Origin: a virus
IMG/VR virus record: IMGVR_UViG_3300029922_000840
Strand: one strand, 5' to 3'
DNA length: 22,923 nt
How positions within the stretch are numbered: the first letter of the stretch is position 1; every line of letters begins with the position of its first letter. A program made the translations under genes and the position numbers. A model generated the notes under the pieces. The model was not told where the DNA came from and searched no databases. It was given only the letters and a program-made list of their open reading frames with translations. Shown here one piece after another: positions 147 to 14,500 of this stretch.

Positions 147-1202
147 TTATTTTCTTAAGCCGTTGTACCTAACTACTTGTTCTTTCCAGTGAGTTGATGT
201 CTGAACATGGCCTTTACGCACCCATTTCCCCACTAAACGTCTAAAATCCCCAAATTGAAAAGCAGCGGCAGGTCGGATAACGAACCCCTCTTGGCGGTTT
301 AAGTCAAGCGAGGCACTGAGCTGGCTCACGAGGCTATCTGACCACAACCCCCTGTATAAAACCGGGACTACTGGAAGATGGAGCAGGGTCGCATACTCAA
401 CGGTATCATCCCATGACAGGCATTTCAAATTCTCCCAGATGCCGAAGATGTAGAAGTACCCCTCTAGGTCGGTGTACTCGATGGAGTGTACGGCTGTTAC
501 GTTTTCTCCACACAAGCGAAGCCCCTCCGGGATATCGTGGGCAATTTCAGCCCAGATTCGTTTTATGAACGTGCGGGAGGGGTGAGGTTCGTAATCAAGA
601 GACCGGGCGTGCATATAGTCGTGGTACAAAGTTGTACACTCGCCGTCTAGTTTCTCAGTAGCGATAACCTCCATGCCCTGCCACTGGTCAGTGGAGGCAT
701 GGATTTTGTCATCGTCAGACGCACCGGGGGAGGTAGCGTAGTGAAATGTACGAGGATATTTTACCCGATTGGTGAATAGATGAAGGAGGGGTGCAAGCAT
801 TTTCTGCACTGGTTCTTCATCAAAAAGTTCTCCACGGAGGCGTAGTCCGCTTGGAAGAATGACGTTGCCCCACTTGTCGTAGCGGTCTTCGGGGCTAAGA
901 TGATCTGGTAGCCGAGGGGTTCCGACGTGAATAGCCGCCCGGATATCGTCGGCTGAGATAGTCGTGTTCTCCGCTCCCACATGACAGTCTGCACAGAGCG
1001 TGGCTCCGTTGTCGAGGTAGTATCCGCCATCGGTGAATAGTTTCCTTTCGATGATGTGGTGGGCAGCGTCTCCCGGCTGGCCGCAGATGACACACTTGTG
1101 CCCGTCTCTGGCGAAGACCCCTTCGCGGAACTCATTACGGGTTAGTAGTGTCGTTTCCATAGTTTTACCGAATAGTCGGGCAGTAGTCGTGGATGAAAGC
1201 AC
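147..1202 (-). CDS. Fusion protein: N-terminal HNH endonuclease motif plus C-terminal ATP-dependent RNA/DNA ligase-like nucleotidyltransferase.
   Basis: HNH signature in the first ~80 aa: CVICGQ...HHIIE...N...CADCH. The ligase part has motif I EKLDGE (KxDG), motif IV QEGFVIRP (EGxVxR) and a K-x-x-K motif GKWVRK near the C-terminus. The track start is probably GTG; an ATG (METTLL) at 1160 is an alternative start. Confidence 0.6.
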   Translation of the reverse strand: MLSSTTTARLFGKTMETTLLTRNEFREGVFARDGHKCVICGQPGDAAHHIIERKLFTDGGYYLDNGATLCADCHVGAENTTISADDIRAAIHVGTPRLPDHLSPEDRYDKWGNVILPSGLRLRGELFDEEPVQKMLAPLLHLFTNRVKYPRTFHYATSPGASDDDKIHASTDQWQGMEVIATEKLDGECTTLYHDYMHARSLDYEPHPSRTFIKRIWAEIAHDIPEGLRLCGENVTAVHSIEYTDLEGYFYIFGIWENLKCLSWDDTVEYATLLHLPVVPVLYRGLWSDSLVSQLSASLDLNRQEGFVIRPAAAFQFGDFRRLVGKWVRKGHVQTSTHWKEQVVRYNGLRK

Positions 1203-3072: not shown

Positions 3073-3858
3073 CTATAGTTGGTCTTTATGCTTAACAAGT
3101 TGATTCAACAAACAGTCATCGGCTCTTTTGTCGTTTCGTTTACGAAGAAGCACTGGCTGTACAATATGATTGCTTCGCGTGGCGTAAAGATAGCGGACTT
3201 CAACTACATCCAACTTATTCAATTGGAACTTTCCACGAAGAGACACCCCCGAGACCTCATATAGCCGTCCCCGTTCGTCGTAGACACCAATGCGAACGCT
3301 GTTGTGGCCTTCCGGGCTGGGTCCGATAACCACAGCATCTAAAGTGCGAGTGAACTTCAGCTTGAAGTGATTCCCAGAACGACCCTCACTGTAGGACTTA
3401 GCCATGTTTTTGATGACCACGCCCTCGGAATGGGACTCCAACAGGGCAATGACCAGCTTAATTTTGGCGGTATCGTCGCGGGTGGTCTTAACCGGGATGA
3501 TGCGAGGGCTGAATCCGTCGAACTCAGCATGATAGCGGGATTCGCGGTACTCGTAGGCATCGTGGATGATGGTCTCATCACCTAAAATTAGGGAATCGAA
3601 CACGTGGATGGTGCTCTTTACTAGCTCCACGTCGATGACGAATTGCTCAAGAGGGTGGGAACGAAGGGCGTTGATGAGAACCACGGGGAGGGGTTTTCCA
3701 CTCTCGCCTTCCCGGTTCCAGTTACGGATGGTTTTCCCCTGCTTGCAAATCGTCCGCCGTTCTCCGTTGAACTTCTCCTGAAATCCATAGTTGGAGTTAT
3801 GGATGAACCGCTCCAACTGCTCTTGCGTGATTTCAGTGAGTAGTTCAGACTTAATCAT
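3073..3858 (-). CDS. Minimal ATP-dependent ligase (DNA-ligase-like nucleotidyltransferase plus OB domain), 261 aa.
   Basis: Motif I EKFNGERR (KxNGxR), motif III-like FVIDVELV, motif IV EGVVIK, motif V FKLKF. The size matches small phage/viral ligases. SD GAGGCGAC-ATG. Confidence 0.75.
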   Translation of the reverse strand: MIKSELLTEITQEQLERFIHNSNYGFQEKFNGERRTICKQGKTIRNWNREGESGKPLPVVLINALRSHPLEQFVIDVELVKSTIHVFDSLILGDETIIHDAYEYRESRYHAEFDGFSPRIIPVKTTRDDTAKIKLVIALLESHSEGVVIKNMAKSYSEGRSGNHFKLKFTRTLDAVVIGPSPEGHNSVRIGVYDERGRLYEVSGVSLRGKFQLNKLDVVEVRYLYATRSNHIVQPVLLRKRNDKRADDCLLNQLVKHKDQL

Positions 3859-4000: not shown

Positions 4001-4030
4001 AGTATACGGGGAGTACCGGGGGTTTGTCTA
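4001..4030 (-). promoter_or_regulatory. Copy 1 of the conserved promoter motif: -35 TAGACA, 18-nt spacer, -10 TATACT, read on the minus strand. It sits in the divergent 248-nt intergenic region upstream of the ligase operon.
   Basis: Plus-strand text AGTATACGGGGAGTACCGGGGGTTTGTCTA. The reverse complement gives TAGACA-N18-TATACT. The same architecture and spacer CCGG blocks recur at 14472-14500 and 20207-20236. Confidence 0.5.
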
Positions 4031-4106: not shown

Positions 4107-7100
4107 ATGATGCAAATTGAAAACTGGCGTGGCCTGTGGAACCTATTGACAACCTATGCGGTCAACGACATCGCGTATTATGAGGGCTCATCCTACTTCG
4201 CTTTGGACATCAACACCGGGAAAGCCCCAATCCTTGCAAACATAGGGGTTTACTGGTCTCCAGTGGCCTTAGCCGGGGAGCAGGGAATTCAGGGTCAGCA
4301 GGGCGTTATAGGCCCCACTGGAATTCAAGGTGTACCCGGAATTCAAGGGCCAGCAGGGAACCCCGGAATTCAGGGAATTCAAGGAAATCAAGGTGACCGC
4401 GGGCCTGAGGGTTTGCCCGGAATTAAGGGCGATACCGGGAGTCAGGGGATTCAGGGAGTCAAGGGCGACACCGGAATTCAAGGTGTACCCGGGGTTCAGG
4501 GAGTCAAGGGCGATATTGGCGACACCGGCCAAGGCTTAGTTTGGCGGAACACTTGGGAGGCGATTGCCACCTACAACACCTATGACTGTGTCCCCTATGA
4601 GGGAGCATCATATATCTGCCTTGCCCCCAACGTCCTGAATGTGTCCCCAGATTCGGATGATTCAAAGTGGGGCTTACTAGCGCAGGGCGGCGGTACAATT
4701 GATTGGTCGGAGATTAAAGATGTTCCTACCACGGTAGCCGGGTACGGCATCACCGACCTATCCCCCGTGGCAACGTCGGGCTCGTACAACGACCTCAACA
4801 ACAAGCCAACCTTAAACTTCGACCCGGCTGGGTCAGCAAGTACGGTACAAGGGAGTCTTACAGCGGAGGTAACAAGAGCGGAGGGGGTTGAGGCTTTGAA
4901 GGCTAACACTTCTAGCCTTGCTCCAGTTGCCTTCTCAGGGGATTACGCTGACCTGAGTGGAACACCCACCCTCGGTACCGCCGCCACTCAGAACAGCTCC
5001 GCGTTCGACCCGGCTGGTACGGCCTCTACAGTTCAAACCAACCTCACCTCGGAAACTTCGCGTGCTCTCGCGGCGGAGGGTCTGCTCGTCCCGAAGACCA
5101 CAACTATCAATGGCAAAGCCCTCTCCAGCAACGTGACCTTGGCGATAACTGACTTTGGGGGAACGCTCCCGCACGCTCAATTGCCGACTTTGCTCAGCAC
5201 CGACATTCCAAGCATCCCCGAATCACAGGTCACCAACCTCGTCAACGACTTGGCCGCAACCGAAAAGACTGCGAACAAGGGCGCGGTGAACGGCTATGCT
5301 GGCTTAGACGCTAACGGGCAGCTCTATACTTCACAGCTCCCAGCACTTGCTATTGTGAGCACCTCTGTGGTCTCCTCTCAGACTGCGATGCTGGCACTCA
5401 CAGCTCAGCAAGGTGACGTAGCTATTCGTGAGGACATCAACGAAACGTTCATCCTTGCTGCGTCTGACCCCACCCTCCTCGCCAACTGGAAGCAAATTCT
5501 CACCCCGGCATCCCCGGTACAGAGTGTCAACGGACAGACAGGAATTGTGAACCTCGCCATCCCGGCAGCTCAGGTCAATAGTGACTGGGCATCGGGGAGC
5601 GGTGTAACTCAAATTCTCAACAAGCCCACCCTCGGCACCGCCGCAGCTCAGAATTCATCTGCCTTTGATTCCGCTGGCTCTGCTGCGACAGTGCAGACCA
5701 ACCTCACCTCGGAAGTCTCTCGTGCAACCACTGCGGAAGGTCTGCTGGTTCCAAAAACAACCACGGTAAATGGTCACGCCCTATCCGCTAATGTCACGGT
5801 CTCTGCTTCTGATCTTACAACGGGAACCCTGCCTGTTGGTCAACTTCCAACAATCCCATATAGCCAACTTTCGGGCACGCCAACGATTCCTTCTGTACCT
5901 CTCACGACCATTCAAAATAATGGTGTCACGGTCACCCCCGTCTCAGGAACGGTCAATCTCATACCCGGCTCGAACGTCACCTTGACCACCTCAGGTGACT
6001 CTATCACCGTTGCCTCCACGACAACATTCTCCGCCCTGACGGGTTCCACCAACACCACAGCCGCCATGGTGGTGGGTACAGGGTCGTCTATCGCTGCAAC
6101 TGGTACTGGTACCATCACTGCTACCTCCTGCCCAACGGAGACCACCCGCGCTGAGGCTGCTGAAGCTCTCCTGCTACCTATCACCACGGCAGCCAGCACC
6201 TATGCTACTCAGACCAACCTGACGGCTGAAGTTACTCGTGCAGAGGCGGCTGAGGCACTGCTTGTGGCCAAGACCACAACAATTGCTGGCCACCCACTGT
6301 CTGGCAACGTGACTGTTGCGTATACTGATCTAACCGGCCTTCCGACTCTTGGAACTGCCGCATCACACGCATCTACAGACTTTGATTCTAGCGGTGCCGC
6401 AGCGTCGGTTCAGACAACTGTAAGCGCATCCATCTCTGCCGAGACAGCGCGGGCTGAAGCTGCCGAAGCTGTCCTTACCACAGCCGTCGCTGGTAAGCAA
6501 TCTGCCCTCGGGTACACACCAGAGAATTTGGCCAACAAGGGTGTAGCAAGTGGTTATCCAACCCTTGATAGCACAGCGCACATCCCGATCAATCAACTTC
6601 CTGCCTCTGTGCAGGGAGCAATGTCATACGTTGGTGTGTGGAATGCAGCCACCAACACTCCGGCAATTAGTAGTGGAGTAGGAACTAAGGGTTTCTTCTA
6701 CAAGGTCAGTGTTGCTGGCTCGACAACAGTTGATGGCAACTCTATTTGGCACGTTGGCGACATGCTCATCTTTGATGGAGCTGCGTGGGATAAGATTGAC
6801 AACTATGAAGCTGTAACATCTGTTGTGGGGCGCACTGGTGCAATCACTCTTAGTGAGGCAGACATCACTGGGTTGGTTGCTGACCTTGGCACACTCACTG
6901 CGGGCATCGCCGGAGAAGTAACCCGTGCGGAAGGCATTGAGGCCACGCTGGCCGCAAACCTCGCAGCGGAAGTTACAAGGGCTGAAGGTGTAGAGAGCAC
7001 ACTTGCCCCGATAGCAGGGCCACTGTTTAATGGCCCTGTTGGTATTGATGTAGCTACTCCAGATCAAGCTCTTACTCTTGCCACTGGTGATGCTGTTGCG

Positions 7101-7796
7101 TGGATGCAACCGCAGAGATTTGGGGGTGGCGGTGGTACAATAGAAGGCGGAGATACATCCGATACGGGGCTTTCCAGAACGGATGTTGGAGTTGTGGCGG
7201 TTGGTAACGGTCAACCCGGCGATACTTCTGGGTCGTTGCAGTGTGCTGTAATCCTTGCTGGTAACCTTGCCAACTCGGCAACTACTGACACTACAAACGC
7301 AGCAAATATCACAAGCGGTGTGCTGCCTCTCGCGCAAGTCCCGGCAATCCCCGTTAGCAAGACCACTGGGTTTGCCACTGTCGCCACAACTGGCACATAT
7401 AGTAGCCTCACAGGTCTTCCGGCCATCCCGGTTGTAGGAACTGTCACCCCGGTTGTAGATGGAGCCGCCTCAATAGGCAGCACTGGTAAATGGGCAGACG
7501 CTGGACACATTCACCCAACTGACACCAGCCGTGTGGCCACCAGTACCACGGTCAATGGTCACACGCTAAGCAGCAATGTGGTTGTTTCCGCTTCCGACCT
7601 CACAACTGGCACGCTGCCCGTTGCCCAGCTCCCCACGATTCCATACAGCCAGCTTTCGGGCTCCCCCACTTTGGGTAACGCCGCACCTTTGAATGTGGGA
7701 ACCACAAGCGGAACTGTGGCGGCTGGGGACGACCCTCGGCTTAACGCTGCGGTATCCACCGCGAGAGCTGTAGCTTTCGCCATTGCCTTCGGTTAA
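4107..7796 (+). CDS. Long tail fiber / receptor-binding protein, 1229 aa, with a collagen-like domain and multiple diverged tandem fiber modules.
   Basis: SD AAGGGGA before the ATG. There are 29 uninterrupted Gly-X-Y triplets (aa 57-143). Repeated modules include PTLGTAA.QNSSAFD.AG.A.TVQTNLTSE..RA..AEGLLVPKTTT.NG.ALS.NVT and TGTLP.AQLPTIPYSQLSG.PT, and there are several AEVTRAEG.EA repeats. Confidence 0.85.
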   Translation: MMQIENWRGLWNLLTTYAVNDIAYYEGSSYFALDINTGKAPILANIGVYWSPVALAGEQGIQGQQGVIGPTGIQGVPGIQGPAGNPGIQGIQGNQGDRGPEGLPGIKGDTGSQGIQGVKGDTGIQGVPGVQGVKGDIGDTGQGLVWRNTWEAIATYNTYDCVPYEGASYICLAPNVLNVSPDSDDSKWGLLAQGGGTIDWSEIKDVPTTVAGYGITDLSPVATSGSYNDLNNKPTLNFDPAGSASTVQGSLTAEVTRAEGVEALKANTSSLAPVAFSGDYADLSGTPTLGTAATQNSSAFDPAGTASTVQTNLTSETSRALAAEGLLVPKTTTINGKALSSNVTLAITDFGGTLPHAQLPTLLSTDIPSIPESQVTNLVNDLAATEKTANKGAVNGYAGLDANGQLYTSQLPALAIVSTSVVSSQTAMLALTAQQGDVAIREDINETFILAASDPTLLANWKQILTPASPVQSVNGQTGIVNLAIPAAQVNSDWASGSGVTQILNKPTLGTAAAQNSSAFDSAGSAATVQTNLTSEVSRATTAEGLLVPKTTTVNGHALSANVTVSASDLTTGTLPVGQLPTIPYSQLSGTPTIPSVPLTTIQNNGVTVTPVSGTVNLIPGSNVTLTTSGDSITVASTTTFSALTGSTNTTAAMVVGTGSSIAATGTGTITATSCPTETTRAEAAEALLLPITTAASTYATQTNLTAEVTRAEAAEALLVAKTTTIAGHPLSGNVTVAYTDLTGLPTLGTAASHASTDFDSSGAAASVQTTVSASISAETARAEAAEAVLTTAVAGKQSALGYTPENLANKGVASGYPTLDSTAHIPINQLPASVQGAMSYVGVWNAATNTPAISSGVGTKGFFYKVSVAGSTTVDGNSIWHVGDMLIFDGAAWDKIDNYEAVTSVVGRTGAITLSEADITGLVADLGTLTAGIAGEVTRAEGIEATLAANLAAEVTRAEGVESTLAPIAGPLFNGPVGIDVATPDQALTLATGDAVAWMQPQRFGGGGGTIEGGDTSDTGLSRTDVGVVAVGNGQPGDTSGSLQCAVILAGNLANSATTDTTNAANITSGVLPLAQVPAIPVSKTTGFATVATTGTYSSLTGLPAIPVVGTVTPVVDGAASIGSTGKWADAGHIHPTDTSRVATSTTVNGHTLSSNVVVSASDLTTGTLPVAQLPTIPYSQLSGSPTLGNAAPLNVGTTSGTVAAGDDPRLNAAVSTARAVAFAIAFG
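4275..4535 (+). repeat. Collagen-like Gly-X-Y triplet array (29 triplets) encoded by a 9-bp periodic DNA repeat (GGAATTCARGG-like) carrying about 6 EcoRI sites.
   Basis: Peptide GEQGIQGQQGVIGPTGIQGVPGIQGPAGNPGIQGIQGNQGDRGPEGLPGIKGDTGSQGIQGVKGDTGIQGVPGVQGVKGDIGDTGQG. GGAATTCA(A/G)GG is visibly reiterated. Confidence 0.85.
4765..4811. repeat. Arm 1 of the 47-bp perfect inverted repeat (IR-A), shared with 12592-12638. It encodes VATSGSYNDLNNKPT in both fiber genes.
   Basis: Plus CCGTGGCAACGTCGGGCTCGTACAACGACCTCAACAACAAGCCAACC is the exact reverse complement of 12592-12638. The flanks are unrelated upstream and only ~70% identical downstream. Confidence 0.8.
7491..7517. repeat. Arm 1 of the 27-bp perfect inverted repeat (IR-B), shared with 11617-11643. 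It encodes WADAGHIHP in both fiber genes.
   Basis: TGGGCAGACGCTGGACACATTCACCCA is the exact reverse complement of 11617-11643. The immediate flanks are only ~55-60% identical. Confidence 0.8.
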
Positions 7797-7826
7797 GACT
7801 TTCGAGCCCTATATAGGAGCATTTTC

Positions 7827-9710
7827 ATGCAAGTAATGGTTGGCAACAACTACGGTTCGTACTCATTTAACGCCACAACAGGTGTCATTACCCTGTCAGG
7901 GTTGCCGACTCCTTTAACTCAAGAGCAGGTGAAGCTGATTATTTGTGCAGCGACCAACACAATCATATTCAACCTAGCCGACCCAACTCAGACAGCCGTT
8001 GTCTCAGGGGGTAACACCATTGCCCTATCATATAACACAACTGGGATGGACGGTCGCCCGCTTCAAATTTTCTTAGAGGTACCGGGTACTGAAGCTCAGC
8101 AGGGACAGAGCAATGAAACCCCGTTGATGACTGTAATCGCGGGGCTGACGCAGGATGTAATCCCCCAGTACCAAGAGATTCCCCTTACATCAGGGGCGAC
8201 GGCGGTAGTAACAAGTGACGCCCACATAACGTCGTCAACGGCGCAAGCCGGGGGTGTTACTCCTTCCCAAACCTTACTGGCCATCGCAGGTCTTACCAAT
8301 GACCCCACCCCCCAATATCAAGAGATTCCTCTCGGGCCGGGTGGGAACGCCGTTCTTGTTAATGGCTCCGCTTTCACGCAGCCTATCAGTGGTCAGTATA
8401 ACGCCGTGCCCCCTACACTCGGGTCAGGCAGCGTGGGTGTTTTGCAGACTGATGTAAACGGTAACCTAAGAGTCGTCTCTGGTTCTATTGACGGGACAAT
8501 CCTAGATACGCAGTCATCTGTTACCTTAGGGGCGGGGGCAACCTACAACGTTGCCGGGTATGGTTTTCTATCCTTTCAATTCAACGGTGCGTGGTCAGGA
8601 AACATCAAGATTGAAGCTAGCAACGATGGTGTGACATGGACTCAGCAGTATGTTCAGTACCTCGGCACAGGGTGGGTCTCGGACGTAATCAACCTTCCGG
8701 GTGCCATCGTACAAGTCACTGCCGCCAGCATCTACATGCGGTACAACGTTATTAAGTTGAGCGGCACGGCCACCGTTACAGTTGTAGGAAACACTGGTGC
8801 CATATCAACCACCAGTCTGCTTGGTATGGCATTTGATGCAGCCTCGGGTGTCCAGCTCAACACCAATATCACTAACCTGAATAAGGACACCAGCAACGCT
8901 CTGATTTTGAGCGATGCCCCTGCTCCTATACCCATCTCTGGAGGTATCGGCTCTACTATCACCATAGATACTCAAGGGTACGAGTCTCTGAACATTACAA
9001 CTCAGGGTTTGGCTGGGGCTGTTACCACCTCGAATGATAAGGTCACTTGGTCAGCTCTGTCTGGCACTCCTCTAGTGTTGGGAACTCTTGTAACCTCCGT
9101 TGCGGCCAACACTGGGTATAGCTTCCCCTGTATCGCACGATTCATCCGCTTCGTACTTACCGCCGTAGGTTCCGCTACCGTGTTTCTTCGTAGCACCCCG
9201 TGGCAGAGTGCCTATACCACTACGGTTCCCACCAGCACTGCTAATAACAACTTGAGCCAGATTAACACCACTACAGTGGCATCGGCTGGGGTTGGTGGCA
9301 TACTCGCAGTGGGGGGTAACGTCGCCCCTGGTTCAGCTCAGACGGCGTACCCTCTGGTGGTAGGTGGGGTTGACCCTACAAGTGCCACTCGTCGTATCCA
9401 GACAGACGCCACAGGACGCATCAATGCCAACATGGTGACTACGGATGCTGCCTCCGTTCAAAGAGGCGTGGGCGTCATGCCCCCGGCCACCACCAGTCAG
9501 AACGTTGCACCATTGGCAGTACAGGAGTTAACCCAATTTGAAGGGCAGTCCTTCGTTGAACTTCTTGGTCAGATTCTTACCGAACTGAGAATTTCCAACC
9601 ATTACAACTTCAACCTGCCGAGTTTGCTGACTACCGGAACTATTAATAGCACGGGCGACGAACCAGCAGCTCTTCGTAATGACCCGAATATTTCTACATT
9701 GTTTGGCTAA
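7827..9710 (+). CDS. Putative tail fiber / structural (receptor-binding-like) protein, 627 aa, Thr/Ser/Gly/Val-rich.
   Basis: SD TAGGAG 8 nt before the ATG, directly downstream of the fiber gene. An internal duplicated motif (VIAGLTQDVIPQYQEIPLTSGA / AIAGLTNDPTPQYQEIPLGPGG) sits at ~8115-8350. The composition is typical of beta-rich fiber proteins. No enzyme motif. Confidence 0.55.
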   Translation: MQVMVGNNYGSYSFNATTGVITLSGLPTPLTQEQVKLIICAATNTIIFNLADPTQTAVVSGGNTIALSYNTTGMDGRPLQIFLEVPGTEAQQGQSNETPLMTVIAGLTQDVIPQYQEIPLTSGATAVVTSDAHITSSTAQAGGVTPSQTLLAIAGLTNDPTPQYQEIPLGPGGNAVLVNGSAFTQPISGQYNAVPPTLGSGSVGVLQTDVNGNLRVVSGSIDGTILDTQSSVTLGAGATYNVAGYGFLSFQFNGAWSGNIKIEASNDGVTWTQQYVQYLGTGWVSDVINLPGAIVQVTAASIYMRYNVIKLSGTATVTVVGNTGAISTTSLLGMAFDAASGVQLNTNITNLNKDTSNALILSDAPAPIPISGGIGSTITIDTQGYESLNITTQGLAGAVTTSNDKVTWSALSGTPLVLGTLVTSVAANTGYSFPCIARFIRFVLTAVGSATVFLRSTPWQSAYTTTVPTSTANNNLSQINTTTVASAGVGGILAVGGNVAPGSAQTAYPLVVGGVDPTSATRRIQTDATGRINANMVTTDAASVQRGVGVMPPATTSQNVAPLAVQELTQFEGQSFVELLGQILTELRISNHYNFNLPSLLTTGTINSTGDEPAALRNDPNISTLFG

Positions 9711-9725
9711 TAAAGGAGATTTTCC

Positions 9726-10439
9726 ATGCAGATTCAGACTCAGGTTGGCCCCATCGCAACCACACAATCTATCGCTCCCGGCTCTATTGCCGCCGTGCGT
9801 TCGGGTAACCTTGGCGATACTATCGTTTCCGAGTTGCACGGAAGATTCTACGAACAGGCATATCGTCTCAACCTGTATTCCGCAGGTATGACGACCCTTA
9901 CCTCAATTTCCAACGCCACCTTCACCACGGCTACTGGCATGTCCGCTACCCTTGGTACCGCAGCTACTGGAACCCCGGTCATCGGCATTTGGAACCCGTC
10001 CACCTCCACCATCAATGCGGTCATCCTTCAAGCCACTCTCAACGTCACCCTCACCGCCCTCACCGCGACTGGTGCAGGTGGATTTGTTTGGGGTGTGTTT
10101 GCTGGTAACGGTGCCCTCACCTTAGGCAACGCTCCCATCAACCGCAAGACTTTGACGGCTGGTGGCTCACAGTGCAAGAACCTGTCTGGCCTAGCTCTTA
10201 CGGGTTTGACCAACGTCGGTGTTGTCGTTGCCGCATCTACCCTCAACGGGGGGCCTATCTACAACGTCTCCGAAGTGGGCACGGCTGCTGGTTTCCACAC
10301 GGTAGCTTTGACCTCAGTTGAGAACCTTGACGGCTCAATCATCCTGCCCCCGGGCGGTGTGCTTGCTCTCTTTGCGACGACCACCCCGGTGGCCTTGTCC
10401 GCAGTCGGCTCCCTGCTCTGGGAAGAAGTACCTGTGTAA
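9726..10439 (+). CDS. Structural / tail-fiber-associated protein, 237 aa, possibly a distal fiber component or assembly protein.
   Basis: SD AAGGAG. Thr/Ala/Gly-rich. It is the last gene of the plus-strand fiber operon, followed by a terminator. Confidence 0.45.
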   Translation: MQIQTQVGPIATTQSIAPGSIAAVRSGNLGDTIVSELHGRFYEQAYRLNLYSAGMTTLTSISNATFTTATGMSATLGTAATGTPVIGIWNPSTSTINAVILQATLNVTLTALTATGAGGFVWGVFAGNGALTLGNAPINRKTLTAGGSQCKNLSGLALTGLTNVGVVVAASTLNGGPIYNVSEVGTAAGFHTVALTSVENLDGSIILPPGGVLALFATTTPVALSAVGSLLWEEVPV

Positions 10440-10456
10440 CCTCCGCACCGCAACAA

Positions 10457-10483
10457 AAAGCCCCCAGAGATGGGGGCTTTTTC
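10457..10483. terminator. Bidirectional rho-independent terminator between the convergent fiber operons.
   Basis: AAAAAGCCCCCAGAGATGGGGGCTTTTT. A 7-bp GC stem with a 4-nt loop, an A-run upstream and a T-run downstream, so it can act on both strands. Confidence 0.8.
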
Positions 10484-10582
10484 AGCTCTTGATGCTGCCA
10501 GACTTATGTCGCCTCACGAGAACGGTATCTTCGCCTTCGAAACGCCAGCAGAACGGTATCACAATGTCCTCACCAGCAGGTT

Positions 10583-11110
10583 TTAGGTGCAGGTGCAGGT
10601 GGTGACATACTTCGCTCCACCAAGCGTGTAGTAGACAGTGATTTGGTAATCGCCCAAATAGGCTGTGTAAGAAGCTAATGAGGCAGTGTTTGTGATGTCA
10701 GTGTACACATATAACCCGAACCCCGAGTTATTAATGTCGCTGTACAGCCATGTGGTGCCCCACAAGCTGGTGCTTGTGCCCACCGTGTCGGTGCTCTGTG
10801 TTGCAGTCCAACTCGTTGACCCAGTTGTTAACGTTGCAGGTACGCTAGTCCCCGCCTTCATCAAGTAAACACTTACCTGATTCACCGTGAGATAGGAGAT
10901 GTTCTGGATTCTGCGCTGGTAGCTGGCGACGATACCGTTGATGGTTGCACCTGCGGGGATGGCGAACCCGAATCCCGACCCTTGCAGCGTGGCGATAGTC
11001 TCATTACCATGGGTTATGGACTGAGAAGCCAGTGTGGTGTTCGCCACGTTGTTGGGGTTAGTCCAACTCGATCCAATTCCTGATGTTGCTGTAAGCCCTG
11101 AGCTTGGCAT
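10583..11110 (-). CDS. Small fiber-associated structural protein, 175 aa, translationally coupled to the upstream fiber gene.
   Basis: The start overlaps the stop of the 570-aa fiber gene (TAATG overlap at 11108-11112). Ser/Thr/Gly-rich. The C-terminus is encoded by ACCTGC repeats (CTCT). Confidence 0.5.
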   Translation of the reverse strand: MPSSGLTATSGIGSSWTNPNNVANTTLASQSITHGNETIATLQGSGFGFAIPAGATINGIVASYQRRIQNISYLTVNQVSVYLMKAGTSVPATLTTGSTSWTATQSTDTVGTSTSLWGTTWLYSDINNSGFGLYVYTDITNTASLASYTAYLGDYQITVYYTLGGAKYVTTCTCT

Positions 11111-12822
11111 TAGCGCACCCCGTAGAGGCTGAGAGCAGCACCAGCAGCAGTGGTATCAGCAGATGAAGGAGCGGTCATGGTTAGCACATCGCCAACTGCA
11201 AAGCTCACAGGTGAACTGATGGTGAAGGTTCCCGTTGTTCCTGAGGCTGCTACTGCGATGGTTCCGAAGCTCGTGCCATTCTTTAGGAGCGTGAATGTGC
11301 AGGAGCCAGTAGCTGCTGTCATCAACGTGAAGTATTGGTTCGTGGTGCCGGATGCGATGGTGTACGCGATGCTGGCTTTGTTGTAATACAAGACCTGCGA
11401 TGCAGTGAAGATGCCCGTAGCGAAGCAGGACTTTTCAACTGGCTGCTGTCCAACCGTGGTGATGGTTCCTGAAGCCAGAGATAAGCCAGCACCTACTGTG
11501 GTGATAGCTGCGAGGGCGACACCGTTTATCTGGTGTGCCGTTGTGGCGTTGATGGTGGGTGCGGTAACCGTACCAGTGAACGTTGGGGATGCAAGAGGAG
11601 CCCTGCTCGTATCCGATGGGTGAATGTGTCCAGCGTCTGCCCACTTACCGACTGAGCCAATCGTGGCTGTACCATCCATAACCGGGGTCGTGGTGGCCAC
11701 GACGGGGACGGTAGGGGTACCTGTCACTTGACCATAAGGTAGTGATAGTACAGAGAGGGTAGTCAGGGTGCTGTTGGTGGTGGCGGTAACATTAGCCGAG
11801 GTACCCGTGGTGTTAGCCGCATTGCTTGGAATATCCCCTGACAATAATGTTGGGAGTTGAGCATGGGGTAATGTACCCGACACCTGTGCAATAGGTAGTG
11901 TGAATGTACCGATGTCACTGAGATCAGTGGTAGCCAACTGTGCGGCGGTGAATACTCCAGTGGATGAGTTATAAGAGTTAAGACACGTATGCGCCACGGA
12001 AGCAAACGTAGTAGCCAACGTGGTCGTGTTGGGTAATGCACTTACCATGACAGCGGTGATACCGCTGACCGTGCCTGTGAACGTGGGGCTGGCTTTGGGG
12101 GCTAGAAGAGCTTCAGCAGCTTCCGCTCTGGTTGTCTCCGTACTCGCAGCACCAGCAGCATCAAATGCGCTGGATGGTTGGAAAGCGGCCGACCCCAATC
12201 CTGACGTGGCGATAGTGACTGCATCACCGCTCGTGGTCAGGGCAATATTGCTTCCCGGAACTAAGTTGATGACACCAGAGGCCGGAGTGACCACCACACC
12301 ATTGTTTTGAATTGTGGTGATGGGTACGCTGGGAATGGTCGGCGTCCCGCTCAGGTTAGCGTAAGGAATCGTTGGGAGCTGGGCTACTGGGAGTGTGCCA
12401 GTTGTTATATCGCTTGCACTGACGGTAACGTTGGCTGAGAGAGCGTGACCGTTCACAGTGGTGGTCTTTGCGACTAGGAGACCCTCTGCCGTGGTTGCTC
12501 TTGTTACTTCTGAGGTGAGATTGGTCTGTACCGTTGCGGCGGAGCCAGCAGCGTCAAAGGCCGTGATGTTCTGGGCGGCGGCGGTGCCAAGGGTTGGCTT
12601 GTTGTTGAGGTCGTTGTACGAGCCCGACGTTGCCACGGTTGCAAGGCTAGACCCCCCACCGCCACCAACCGAAATGTCGAGTTTACCGTCAGACCCAAGA
12701 AGGGGTACCTTCCCGGCATCGGCTGAACCTTGAGAAATGGTGACCGCACCCACGAGTCCCTCAGTTAAGGGGCCTTGTGGATTCGGTTGTAGGAGTTTAA
12801 GAATTTTGAAGTCGTCGGCCAT
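11110..12822 (-). CDS. Second tail fiber protein, 570 aa, built from the same module family as the plus-strand fiber but with different N- and C-termini.
   Basis: It shares SGSYNDLNNKPTLGTAAAQN...TVQTNLTSEVTRATTAEGLLVAKTTTVNGHALSANVTVSASD.TTGTLPVAQLPTIPY...IQNNGV, TLPHAQLPTLLSGDIPS and GKWADAGHIHPSDTSR with ORF 4107-7796. The DNA is ~70% identical apart from the two perfect IRs. Confidence 0.8.
   Translation of the reverse strand: MADDFKILKLLQPNPQGPLTEGLVGAVTISQGSADAGKVPLLGSDGKLDISVGGGGGSSLATVATSGSYNDLNNKPTLGTAAAQNITAFDAAGSAATVQTNLTSEVTRATTAEGLLVAKTTTVNGHALSANVTVSASDITTGTLPVAQLPTIPYANLSGTPTIPSVPITTIQNNGVVVTPASGVINLVPGSNIALTTSGDAVTIATSGLGSAAFQPSSAFDAAGAASTETTRAEAAEALLAPKASPTFTGTVSGITAVMVSALPNTTTLATTFASVAHTCLNSYNSSTGVFTAAQLATTDLSDIGTFTLPIAQVSGTLPHAQLPTLLSGDIPSNAANTTGTSANVTATTNSTLTTLSVLSLPYGQVTGTPTVPVVATTTPVMDGTATIGSVGKWADAGHIHPSDTSRAPLASPTFTGTVTAPTINATTAHQINGVALAAITTVGAGLSLASGTITTVGQQPVEKSCFATGIFTASQVLYYNKASIAYTIASGTTNQYFTLMTAATGSCTFTLLKNGTSFGTIAVAASGTTGTFTISSPVSFAVGDVLTMTAPSSADTTAAGAALSLYGVR
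11617..11643. repeat. Arm 2 of IR-B, the 27-bp perfect inverted repeat of 7491-7517.
   Basis: See IR-B arm 1. Confidence 0.8.
12592..12638. repeat. Arm 2 of IR-A, the 47-bp perfect inverted repeat of 4765-4811.
   Basis: See IR-A arm 1. Confidence 0.8.
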
Positions 12823-14471: not shown

Positions 14472-14500
14472 AGTATACCGGGACTCACCGGGTTTGTCTA
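14472..14500 (-). promoter_or_regulatory. Copy 2 of the conserved promoter motif (TAGACA-N17-TATACT).
   Basis: Plus text AGTATACCGGGACTCACCGGGTTTGTCTA. The reverse complement gives TAGACA AACCCGGTGAGTCCCGG TATACT, followed by GTAAATGGAGGGAAACACTA-ATG. Confidence 0.55.

What the first reader, a model, noticed from the sequence alone, without database searches (positions are those of the whole stretch)
4765..12638. 47-bp perfect inverted repeat (IR-A) joins the two convergent tail-fiber genes at the boundary between their unique N-termini and shared body
The two fiber genes are ~70% identical at DNA level across shared modules, but 4765-4811 and 12592-12638 are 47/47 identical (VATSGSYNDLNNKPT), with all synonymous sites conserved. 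Upstream flanks are unrelated: a 220-aa N-terminus with a collagen domain in one gene and a 60-aa N-terminus in the other. This is the geometry of a crossover site in an invertible host-range segment (Mu G, P1 C, Min/shufflon). Inversion would exchange the entire fiber bodies and their downstream partner genes between two N-terminal anchors, keeping the frame.
Basis: seen in the sequence. Interest (0 to 1): 0.82.

Follow-up and report, generated by a model that had tools for sequence, protein, structure and literature searches.

The report
Perfect 47-bp repeat linking two tail-fibre genes
Two facing tail-fibre genes of an uncultured, probably very large, phage share one 47-base stretch that is identical far beyond chance, so the two copies must have exchanged DNA; however, nothing shows that it is a working Mu-type host-range switch.

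Summary
Positions 4765-4811 and 12592-12638 form a 47/47 inverted repeat, in the same codon phase (VATSGSYNDLNNKPT) in two convergent fibre genes. Elsewhere, identical residues of the two genes share a codon only about 33-44% of the time. The chance of 15 identical codons in a row is about 6e-8.

The closest foreign fibre gene shares no exact match of 17 nt or more with the window. The identity is therefore produced within this genome and is not forced by the peptide motif.

The Mu G / P1 C reading is not supported:
- No recombinase domain occurs in about 41.7 kb of contiguous phage DNA.
- The 13 junction-spanning contigs (window included), which I count as coming from about 11 samples, all show the parental junctions.
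- The predicted hybrid proteins are absent from a collection of about 15 billion proteins, while all three parental forms are present.
- The 47-mer has no significant dyad symmetry and does not resemble gix, hix or sfx.
- Both genes are complete.
- A second, unrelated 27-nt identity island sits at a His-box-like motif (KWADAGHIHP), next to a natural long/short polymorphism of fibre 2.

Best reading (about 0.5): a short homology box at a module boundary, kept identical by general homologous recombination or gene conversion. It could allow rare in-frame inversion. A programmed switch driven by a distant recombinase remains possible (about 0.2).

The parts
4765..4811 (+). IR-A left arm, the 47-nt perfect repeat. 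It covers 2 nt plus codons 221-235 of fibre 1 (VATSGSYNDLNNKPT).
12592..12638 (-). IR-A right arm, the exact reverse complement of the left arm. It covers 2 nt plus codons 63-77 of fibre 2, in the same phase.
4107..7796 (+). Fibre 1 gene, 1229 aa. Built from repeated modules, with a collagen region and many tail-fibre PHROG hits.
4107..4764 (+). N1, the unique 220-aa N-terminal part of fibre 1 (CBM5/12-like, then collagen, then CBM5/12-like). In other phages' fibre families this region aligns to internal positions, so its role as a virion anchor is not established.
   Evidence: (phrog_5073 profile positions 212-349 of 519)
11110..12822 (-). Fibre 2 gene, 570 aa (short form). A long form of 860 aa occurs in other samples.
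12639..12822 (-). N2, the unique 62-aa N-terminus of fibre 2. Residues 1-52 are 49% identical to the N-terminus of a fibre in a distant relative (L179) that has a different body. N2 therefore looks like a lineage-conserved attachment module.
7827..9710 (+). 627-aa protein downstream of fibre 1. Its N-terminal 228 aa are 70-72% identical to proteins on six IMG/VR contigs and the rest is variable, so it is probably another receptor-binding protein.
9726..10439 (+). 237-aa protein with no family hit. Last gene of the fibre 1 operon.
10455..10482 (.). Bidirectional hairpin terminator AAAAAGCCCCCAGAGATGGGGGCTTTTT between the two convergent operons.
   Evidence: read directly
10583..11110 (-). 175-aa beta-rich protein downstream of fibre 2, with distant homologues on IMG/VR contigs.
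7491..7517 (+). IR-B left arm, a 27-nt perfect identity island (WADAGHIHP, an HxH 'His-box'-like motif) in fibre 1.
11617..11643 (-). IR-B right arm in fibre 2, nested inside the IR-A pair. Its sequence is unrelated to IR-A.
11577..11697 (-). Polymorphic mosaic patch in fibre 2 (codons about 376-418), overlapping the His box. Here the short and long haplotypes differ, and the long form carries about 290 extra residues.

Best explanation
IR-A is a short homology box at a module boundary of two paralogous, convergently oriented tail-fibre genes.

Shown: the two copies have been made identical within this genome (concerted evolution). The identity is not imposed by the protein motif.

Inferred mechanism: general homologous recombination, by the phage's or the host's machinery, pairs the two arms. 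The heteroduplex can form only where the most conserved peptide motif keeps the DNA similar enough. Its repair or segregation leaves a short patch of perfect identity (gene conversion). That patch in turn becomes the preferred place for further exchange.

Because the arms are inverted and in the same codon phase, the rarer crossover outcome would invert 4812-12591. That would produce in-frame N1-body2 and N2-body1 fibres with their partner genes. This would be a low-frequency, recombinase-independent by-product on which selection could act. It would not be a dedicated Gin/Hin-type switch.

The same process at a second motif (IR-B, the His box) and with fibre genes of other phages explains the mosaic structure and the long/short polymorphism of fibre 2.
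For: - The identity is non-random. P = 6e-8 for IR-A. For IR-B, 0.005 such windows are expected by chance.
- The identity arises within the genome. The closest foreign fibre gene (L168, 68-76% DNA identity over the same modules) has no exact match of 17 nt or more with the window, even at the same motifs.
- Protein conservation alone does not give DNA identity here. Only 37 of 112 identical residues in the best module share a codon, and 5 of 20 in the longest identical run.
- There are two identity islands with unrelated sequences at the two most conserved motifs. This fits homology-driven exchange, not a single recombinase target.
- Recombination at such motifs is visible in the natural population. 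The short and long fibre 2 haplotypes (genomes otherwise at least 99.9% identical) differ by a cluster of 9 changed codons in codons 376-395 plus a module of about 290 aa next to the His box. The two fibre 1 polymorphisms (P163S, I1012L) occur in all four combinations.
- No recombinase domain occurs in about 41.7 kb, and only one orientation is seen. Both fit a rare, non-programmed event.
- Literature: lytic phages can recombine at short identities and can hold IR-flanked segments as isomers without a known dedicated recombinase (PMC8262927; bioRxiv 10.64898/2026.02.14.705889). Recombination at conserved 'His box' motifs in T-even adhesin genes is recalled from memory (Tetart et al. 1996, PMID 8637004, listed; Tetart et al. 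1998).
Against: - The flanks of IR-A give homologous recombination almost nothing to start from. The upstream side is unrelated and the downstream 60 nt are 32% identical without gaps. How the first 47-nt patch arose is therefore unexplained.
- 47 nt is at or below the 50-150 nt said to be needed for classical recombination (PMC8262927).
- No recombination gene (UvsX/RecA, Erf, RecT and similar) was identified in the 41.7 kb seen.
- No variant with a breakpoint at IR-A itself was found. The population evidence concerns the His box only.
- The short-form patch near the His box matches fibre 1 at only 5 of its 9 changed codons, so its donor is probably another phage's fibre gene and not fibre 1.
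- A patch whose edges coincide with the conserved peptide is also what a selected protein-binding site would look like.
- All available genomes are at least 99.9% identical, so recent conversion and long-term DNA-level conservation cannot be told apart.
Confidence: 0.5

Rival explanations
1. Programmed site-specific inversion. A serine or tyrosine recombinase encoded elsewhere in this probably large genome binds the two 47-bp arms and flips 4812-12591. This swaps the two fibre bodies and their partner genes between the N1 and N2 N-termini.
For: - The geometry matches Mu G / P1 C: convergent genes, arms in the same phase at the boundary between N-terminus and body, partner genes inside the segment, and a bidirectional terminator in the middle.
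- The identity is perfect and ends abruptly on both sides, as expected for a selected site.
- N2 is a lineage-conserved N-terminal module joined to a different body in a relative, so body exchange at this point is biologically sensible.
- Invertible loci without a nearby recombinase gene are known (PMC9881135).
- Only about 42 kb of the genome has been seen. A distant relative with some of the same neighbouring genes sits on a 340-kb contig.
Against: - No recombinase domain occurs in 41.7 kb, whereas (from memory) the invertase gene lies next to the segment in the characterised phage systems.
- There are 0 hybrid junctions among 13 junction-spanning contigs, and the 4 predicted hybrid proteins are absent from about 15 billion proteins while the parental forms are present.
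- No contig ends at the outer edge of the repeat. The one break nearby (12523-12577, sample 3300029955) coincides with SNPs.
- The dyad symmetry of the 47-mer is not significant (8 of 12; 107 of 1000 shuffles reach this), and it does not resemble gix, hix or sfx (consensus sequences recalled from memory).
- Both genes are complete with their own start codons, so inversion would not switch a fibre on or off.
- The second identity island (IR-B) has an unrelated sequence.
- None of 80 other viral loci carrying the same peptide motif has it on both strands.
Confidence: 0.22
2. A footprint of one past event with no continuing role. A single historical rearrangement or patch repair (for example repair of a double-strand break in one fibre gene using the other as template) copied 47 nt from one gene into the other. 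The identity simply has not yet decayed.
For: - All known genomes of this phage are at least 99.9% identical, so there is no evolutionary depth to show that the identity is maintained.
- The genome region carries several homing-type nucleases that could make breaks: an HNH domain fused to RNA ligase, a free-standing HNH, a T5orf172/MUG113 protein and an intein.
- It also encodes Ku and ligases.
- Only one orientation is seen.
Against: - Two separate significant islands, IR-A and IR-B, would need two independent accidents.
- A 47-nt copy that is exactly in frame, with no flanking homology to guide repair, is an unlikely single event.
- This reading overlaps with the best explanation and differs from it only on whether exchange recurs.
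Confidence: 0.15
3. A shared functional nucleic-acid element other than a recombination site. The same 47 nt in both mRNAs or both genes would be bound by a common regulator (small RNA, RNA-binding protein or nuclease), or would be kept for co-regulation of the two fibres.
For: Both mRNAs carry the identical 47 nt in the sense orientation. DNA-level or RNA-level constraint would explain the conserved synonymous sites.
Against: - No significant RNA structure: z = -1.3 for the 47-mer alone, -1.35 in the fibre 1 context and -0.3 in the fibre 2 context.
- No Rfam family match anywhere in the window.
- The element lies deep inside coding sequence, at nt 659 of one gene and nt 185 of the other, so at no common distance from the start codons.
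- No third copy exists, even allowing 3 mismatches.
Confidence: 0.06
4. Chance, codon bias or an assembly artefact.
For: The peptide motif GSYNDLxNKP is very common in phage fibres: at least 120 stretches in IMG/VR.
Against: - P = 6e-8 from the genes' own codon usage.
- 0 of 100 shuffles gave a match.
- A foreign gene with the same modules shows no such identity.
- Both junctions are reproduced in 12 other contigs from JGI and ENA assemblies.
Confidence: 0.01

Closest known systems
Phage Mu G segment / Gin, and P1/P7 C segment / Cin, e14 Pin
   Same: Inverted repeats lie inside tail-fibre coding sequence, at the boundary between an N-terminal part and exchangeable C-terminal parts. Two convergent sets of fibre body plus partner gene lie between the repeats. 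Inversion would keep the reading frame.
   Different: - Here no invertase gene is adjacent, or anywhere within about 42 kb.
- There are two complete genes with two different N-termini, so inversion would be a reciprocal swap and not an on/off choice.
- The repeat is 47 bp, GC-rich, without significant dyad symmetry and without likeness to the 26-bp gix/cix/hix consensus.
- No second orientation is observed.
Multiple-inversion systems: Min of plasmid p15B, the R64 shufflon (Rci), the Rin shufflon of Bifidobacterium prophages (PMC6109161)
   Same: Nested inverted repeats lie within genes for host-recognition proteins. Here IR-B is nested inside IR-A.
   Different: Those systems have several crossover sites that share one consensus, and a dedicated recombinase next to them. 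Here the two repeat pairs have unrelated sequences, each is present only twice, and no recombinase is seen.
'His-box' / conserved-motif recombination in T-even long-tail-fibre adhesin genes (Tetart et al. 1996, PMID 8637004; Tetart et al. 1998; from memory)
   Same: Short conserved motifs, including an HxH motif, punctuate otherwise diverged fibre genes and act as breakpoints for homologous exchange that reshuffles modules. Here IR-B is such an HxH motif and lies beside a natural module insertion/deletion. IR-A is a second motif of this kind.
   Different: - Here the partners are two paralogues in inverted orientation within one genome.
- The motif DNA is perfectly identical over 47 nt while synonymous sites around it appear saturated.
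- A crossover would therefore invert a 7.8-kb segment, instead of duplicating a domain or swapping it between phages.
IR-flanked genome isomers in lytic phages without a known dedicated recombinase (about 30-kb invertible region of Anabaena cyanophages; bioRxiv 10.64898/2026.02.14.705889)
   Same: A segment bounded by inverted repeats in a lytic-type phage. General recombination is considered as the driver.
   Different: There both isomers were shown by PCR and read mapping, and relatives differ in orientation. Here only one orientation is seen, and the repeats lie inside coding sequence.

Membership tests
Gin/Hin/Cin/Pin serine-invertase host-range switch | A serine recombinase (Resolvase-family) gene adjacent to or inside the invertible segment | tested here: not met
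   Pfam, PHROGs and NCBIfam scans of all window genes and the precomputed Pfam hits of the flanking contigs L026 (+9.85 kb left) and L169 (+8.97 kb right) show no Resolvase, integrase or transposase domain in about 41.7 kb. The rest of the genome has not been seen.
Gin/Hin/Cin/Pin serine-invertase host-range switch | 26-bp crossover sites with two imperfectly symmetric half-sites around a 2-bp core that match the gix/hix/cix consensus | tested here: not met
   The best 12-nt dyad is 8 of 12, reached by 107 of 1000 shuffles. There are 14-15 mismatches out of 26 to gixL and hixL, and 4-5 out of 12 to the half-site. The consensus sequences were recalled from memory.
Gin/Hin/Cin/Pin serine-invertase host-range switch | Both orientations of the segment coexist in populations | tested here: not met
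   13 junction-spanning contigs give 5 N1-IR-body1, 8 N2-IR-body2 and 0 hybrids. The four predicted hybrid proteins are absent from about 15 billion proteins, while the three parental forms are present. Raw reads were not available, so a minority isomer below the assembler's threshold is not excluded.
Gin/Hin/Cin/Pin serine-invertase host-range switch | One constant expressed N-terminal part outside the segment, with alternative promoter-less C-terminal parts inside | tested here: not met
   Both genes have their own ATG and a Shine-Dalgarno-like sequence. Each arm of the repeat has a coding N-terminus outside it.
Gin/Hin/Cin/Pin serine-invertase host-range switch | A Fis-bound recombinational enhancer | not testable with these tools
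   No recombinase gene is available in which to look for an enhancer, and the host is unknown.
Shufflon / Min multiple-inversion system | Several crossover sites that share one consensus, plus a dedicated recombinase (Rci or Min) | tested here: not met
   The 47-mer has only two copies even with up to 3 mismatches allowed. IR-B is unrelated in sequence. No recombinase was found (calls as above).
Conserved-motif (His-box-type) homologous recombination boxes in tail-fibre genes | Short conserved peptide motifs at module boundaries, shared by otherwise diverged fibre genes | tested here: met
   GSYNDLxNKP occurs in at least 120 IMG/VR stretches and begins the repeated module in both fibres. GKWADAGHIHP(S/T)DTSR occurs in both fibres and twice in the foreign fibre P0002.
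Conserved-motif (His-box-type) homologous recombination boxes in tail-fibre genes | Natural variants whose recombination breakpoints fall at the motifs | tested here: inconclusive
   Met for the His box: the short and long fibre 2 haplotypes differ from codon 376 through a module of about 290 aa that starts right after the motif. Not observed for IR-A itself.
Conserved-motif (His-box-type) homologous recombination boxes in tail-fibre genes | Exchange depends on general recombination functions, not on a site-specific enzyme | not testable with these tools
   This needs genetics. Only indirect support is available: two islands with unrelated sequences and no recombinase gene.
IR-flanked genome isomerisation in lytic phages | Two isomers demonstrable in one population | tested here: not met
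   at assembly level only.

The most novel reading that the evidence does not exclude
A reciprocal 'anchor-swap' inversion switch. A 7.8-kb segment bounded by 47-bp in-frame repeats flips at low frequency, driven either by a recombinase encoded far away in a jumbo-phage genome or by the phage's own general recombination system. This exchanges two complete receptor-binding fibre bodies and their partner proteins between a lineage-conserved virion anchor (N2) and a collagen/carbohydrate-binding N-terminus (N1). It would change fibre placement or display, rather than switching a fibre on or off as in Mu or P1.
Probability: 0.18. Interest if true: 0.75.

Novelty: new member of a known kind. Interest (0 to 1): 0.4.

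Why it matters
If the repeat is a homology box kept identical by recombination, it is a clean natural example of a phage keeping a splice point between the anchor and the receptor-binding parts of its fibres. All synonymous sites in the box are frozen, while those around it appear saturated. That is useful for understanding, and for copying in engineering, how host range is reshuffled in uncultured large phages from the environment.

If it does invert, it would extend fibre-inversion switches in two ways: to a lytic-type, probably jumbo phage with no adjacent invertase, and to a design that swaps two complete fibres reciprocally. The question can be settled with existing data, because the phage is present in at least ten public metagenomes whose reads can be mapped to both isomers.

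Tried and rejected
- Near relatives in INPHARED phage records: no DNA match. Protein matches were only distant, to fibre tips of jumbo and phiCbK-like phages.
- Exact 47-mer in IMG/VR and its 29-nt core in the JGI metagenome contig collection: no match. Those collections do not even hold this phage's own contigs.
- Homologues of fibre 2 among 5.8 billion proteins: only mosaic, partial relatives. Contexts of P0004 (Mu-like baseplate operon) and P0010 (SU10-like phage) are unrelated phages.
- Loci related to the 627-aa protein: only its N-terminal domain is shared, and these loci have no inverted repeats.
- Loci related to the 175-aa protein: distant, and not examined further.
- Loci related to the DNA ligase: none.
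- Loci related to the A1S_2505-like gene: both end just after the matching gene, so they carry no DNA on the side where fibre 2 lies in the window.
- Relatives found through the 241-aa gene: L179 and L180 share neighbouring genes. L180 has no fibre cluster at this position. L179 has an N2-type fibre with a different body, cut by the contig end.
- Literature search for the peptide motif: nothing.
- Assembly break near the repeat in sample 3300029955, considered as a sign of a second isomer: rejected. The 55-nt overlap (12523-12577) lies inside body 2, not at the outer edge of the repeat, and the contig end carries two synonymous SNPs. Those SNPs do not consistently match fibre 1, so they are not evidence of conversion either.
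- RNA element: no Rfam hit, no tRNA, no significant fold.
- Transposon terminal repeats, considered and rejected: the arms are in frame inside two genes that encode the same peptide.
- Diversity-generating retroelement, considered and rejected: no reverse transcriptase, and the repeat is not at a C-terminal variable region.
- Genome walking for a recombinase is limited by the rule that only window proteins can be looked up. The remaining 7.9 kb of the 28-kb contig and the rest of the genome stay unseen.

Full report
THE OBSERVATION. The window carries exactly two copies of a 47-nt sequence, at 4765-4811 (+) and 12592-12638 (-). They are perfectly complementary, and no match appears in 100 shuffles. 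Fibre 1 (4107-7796, +, 1229 aa) and fibre 2 (11110-12822, -, 570 aa) converge on a bidirectional hairpin terminator at 10455-10482. Fibre 1 is followed by 627-aa and 237-aa genes, and fibre 2 by a 175-aa gene.

The repeat covers 2 nt plus 15 whole codons (VATSGSYNDLNNKPT) in the same phase in both genes: aa 221-235 of fibre 1 and aa 63-77 of fibre 2. Upstream of it the genes are unrelated. Fibre 1 has a 220-aa N-terminus with a collagen region flanked by CBM5/12-like repeats. Fibre 2 has a 62-aa N-terminus. One refinement is needed: the bodies are built from repeated, shuffled modules and are not collinear. Fibre 2's first module is closest to fibre 1 aa 505-638 (84% aa identity), not to the sequence that follows the repeat in fibre 1.

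IS IT MORE THAN CHANCE? Yes, by a wide margin.
- The 84%-identical module is only 68% identical in DNA, and only 37 of its 112 identical residues use the same codon.
- Over all runs of at least 6 identical residues outside the repeat, 101 of 230 residues share a codon. The longest run (20 residues) shares only 5 codons.
- With the fibres' own codon usage, 15 identical codons in a row have probability 6e-8. The expected number of such windows over all runs is 2e-7.
- The next-longest inverted exact match in the whole window is 27 nt, and everything else is 15 nt or shorter.
- The peptide motif GSYNDLxNKP is very common in viral contigs, with at least 120 stretches in IMG/VR. The motif still does not force the DNA. 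The closest foreign fibre gene (P0002 on L168) shares the same modules at 68-76% DNA identity, yet has no exact match of 17 nt or more with the window.

The identity is therefore generated within this genome. The two copies have exchanged sequence, or are held identical by selection on the DNA itself.

WHAT THE ELEMENT SITS IN. The window is an entire 22,923-bp metagenomic contig. Its other genes include:
- an HNH domain fused to RNA ligase, a DNA ligase, Ku, an rIIB and a probable rIIA;
- PTH2 and an R2K ATP-grasp protein;
- an 819-aa protein with Major Vault Protein shoulder and repeat domains.

A distant relative with some of the same neighbouring genes sits on a 340-kb contig. This is probably a large lytic-type phage.

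The same phage, at 99.8-100% identity, was assembled in more than ten JGI, ENA and Logan samples. That gave three things:
- independent confirmation of both junctions;
- about 9.85 kb of extra sequence to the left (L026) and 8.97 kb to the right (L169);
- a view of natural variation.

TESTS OF THE INVERSION-SWITCH READING.
1. Recombinase. No Resolvase, integrase or transposase domain appears in any gene across about 41.7 kb. The genes inside the segment are beta-rich structural-looking proteins. From memory, the invertase gene lies next to the segment in the characterised phage systems. Loci without a nearby recombinase gene do exist (PMC9881135).
2. Orientation. The exact 47-mer occurs 14 times in the fetched loci, which correspond to 12 distinct contig junctions besides the window's own two. 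Counting the window, there are 5 N1-IR-body1 junctions, 8 N2-IR-body2 junctions and no hybrid.
3. Hybrid proteins. I built the four proteins predicted for inversion at IR-A (with short and long fibre 2) and for one product of inversion at IR-B, and looked them up by exact sequence in a collection of about 15 billion proteins. None is present. Fibre 1, short fibre 2 and long fibre 2 all are.
4. Contig ends. No contig ends at the outer edge of a repeat arm. The one break nearby (12523-12577 in sample 3300029955) lies inside body 2 and coincides with SNPs.
5. Site features. The 47-mer has no significant dyad symmetry (8 of 12; 107 of 1000 shuffles reach this). It does not resemble gix, hix or sfx, whose consensus sequences I recalled from memory.
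6. Design. Both genes are complete, each with its own start codon and Shine-Dalgarno-like sequence. Inversion would swap the bodies reciprocally rather than choose between an expressed and a silent one.
7. Recurrence. Among 80 listed viral loci with the same peptide motif, none has it on both strands.

These results do not exclude a rare inversion, because assemblers report only the majority path and most of the genome is unseen. They do remove all positive support for a Gin/Hin/Cin- or shufflon-type system.

WHAT POINTS TO GENERAL RECOMBINATION. The 27-nt match (7491-7517 / 11617-11643) is a second island of perfect identity: nine identical codons, WADAGHIHP, where 0.005 such windows are expected by chance. 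It lies at an HxH 'His-box'-like motif, nested inside the IR-A pair. Its sequence is unrelated to IR-A. One recombinase with one target does not explain two unrelated islands. Homology-limited exchange at the two most conserved motifs does.

The population shows such exchange directly:
- Fibre 2 exists as a 570-aa form (this window, L001, L002) and an 860-aa form (L026/L171, L046, L172, L040, L041).
- In genomes that are otherwise at least 99.9% identical, the two forms differ by 9 changed codons within codons 376-395, followed by replacement of about 10 residues with a module of about 290 residues starting right after the His box.
- The two amino-acid polymorphisms of fibre 1 (P163S, I1012L) occur in all four combinations. 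This fits recombination among co-circulating genomes.
- The N2 module (aa 1-52) recurs at 49% identity at the head of a fibre in a distant relative (L179). That fibre has a completely different body and lacks the SGSYNDL motif. The anchor-body junction just upstream of IR-A is therefore a real evolutionary exchange point.

MECHANISM PROPOSED.
- Shown: concerted evolution of a 47-nt box within the genome, a second 27-nt box, and modular recombination in the fibre genes of this population.
- Inferred: pairing of the inverted arms by general recombination. The heteroduplex is confined to the stretch where the conserved peptide keeps the DNA similar. Repair or segregation of that heteroduplex gives a perfect patch, and once formed the patch is the favoured site for the next exchange.
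- Consequence: non-crossover outcomes keep the arms identical. Crossover outcomes would invert 4812-12591 in frame.
- Literature support is indirect. T4 recombines at very short identities after breaks, while classical exchange needs about 50-150 nt (PMC8262927). Anabaena cyanophages hold an IR-flanked 30-kb segment as two isomers with no dedicated recombinase identified (bioRxiv 10.64898/2026.02.14.705889). T-even fibre genes recombine at conserved His boxes (Tetart et al. 1996, PMID 8637004, reference seen; the details are from memory).
- Weak points: the flanks of IR-A offer almost no homology to start the first event. No recombination gene has been identified in the sequence available. No variant with a breakpoint at IR-A has been seen.

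RIVALS. A programmed switch with a distant recombinase keeps about 0.2. A one-off repair footprint gets about 0.15; it would need two independent accidents to explain both islands. A shared regulatory RNA or DNA element gets about 0.06, given no structure signal, no Rfam hit and no common position relative to the start codons. Chance or artefact is effectively excluded.

COMPARISON AND NOVELTY. In geometry the locus resembles Mu G / P1 C. It fails every defining feature of that family that could be tested here, so it should not be filed there. It behaves like the conserved-motif recombination boxes of T-even fibre genes. The difference is that the partners are inverted paralogues in one genome, so the same process could invert 7.8 kb. 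I rate it a new member of a known kind (recombination boxes at fibre module boundaries), in a previously undescribed large environmental phage. The most novel reading not excluded is a reciprocal anchor-swap inversion switch without an adjacent invertase (probability about 0.18).

VERDICT. Interest is 0.4. The decisive test, mapping reads from at least ten existing metagenomes to both isomers, is simple and uses public data.

Noticed in passing
window 7491-7517 and 11617-11643: A second perfect inverted identity island of 27 nt (9 identical codons, WADAGHIHP, an HxH 'His-box'-like motif), nested inside the 47-nt pair. About 0.005 such windows are expected by chance, and its sequence is unrelated to the 47-mer.
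   Followed up: yes
window 11577-11697; L046 14468-16222, L172 11672-13576, L041 1-535, L171 12158-14319: Fibre 2 is polymorphic in nature. Besides the 570-aa form there is an 860-aa form, with 9 changed codons in codons 376-395 and an extra module of about 290 aa (including an FN3-like stretch) inserted right after the His box. The genomes are otherwise at least 99.9% identical. Many contigs break inside this gene.
   Followed up: yes
window 4107-7796 (fibre 1 residues 163 and 1012): Four fibre 1 haplotypes exist in public assemblies, carrying P163S and I1012L in all four combinations. This suggests recombination among co-circulating genomes.
   Followed up: partly
window 14830-17289 (-): An 819-aa protein with Major Vault Protein shoulder (PF11978, E = 3.5e-26) and Vault repeat domains, inside a phage-like gene neighbourhood. 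It has no PHROG hit and is identical across several samples.
   Followed up: no
window 12639-12822 (-); L179 15111-15636: The 52-aa N-terminus of fibre 2 is 49% identical to the start of a fibre gene in a distant relative (31.8-kb contig Ga0326728_10006379). That gene continues with an unrelated body and has no SGSYNDL motif.
   Followed up: partly
window 7827-9710 (+); L008-L013: The first 92-228 residues of the 627-aa protein are 70-72% identical to proteins on six IMG/VR contigs, while the rest differs. It looks like another modular receptor-binding protein with a conserved N-terminal attachment domain.
   Followed up: partly
window 4001-4030 (-), 14472-14500 (-), 20189-20217: A recurring promoter-like motif on the minus strand (TAGACA-N17/18-TATACT at the first two sites; a shared TTTACAGTATACCGGG core, read on the plus strand, at the last two). 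It lies just upstream of the DNA ligase, the 241-aa gene and the Ku gene. No promoter-like site was reported upstream of either fibre gene.
   Followed up: partly
window 147-1202 (-), 3073-3858 (-), 19196-20182 (-); L026 16781-19309: An unusual set of nucleic-acid repair genes: an HNH endonuclease domain fused to an RNA ligase, an ATP-dependent DNA ligase, Ku, and (left of the window) an 842-aa ClpB-like AAA protein interrupted by an intein, plus a T5orf172/MUG113 nuclease-like gene.
   Followed up: no
window 4107-10439 versus the rest: Fibre 1 and its two downstream genes form the only large plus-strand block in about 42 kb of otherwise minus-strand genes. In the distant relative L180 no fibre cluster lies at the corresponding place next to the 241-aa and A1S_2505-like genes. 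The fibre cluster looks like a lineage-specific insertion among non-structural genes.
   Followed up: partly
window 12523-12577; L047 end, L038 start: In sample 3300029955 two contigs end with a 55-nt overlap just inside the right arm. The L047 end carries two synonymous SNPs (TTT>TTC, GTA>GTG). This is strain microdiversity, not an inversion junction.
   Followed up: yes
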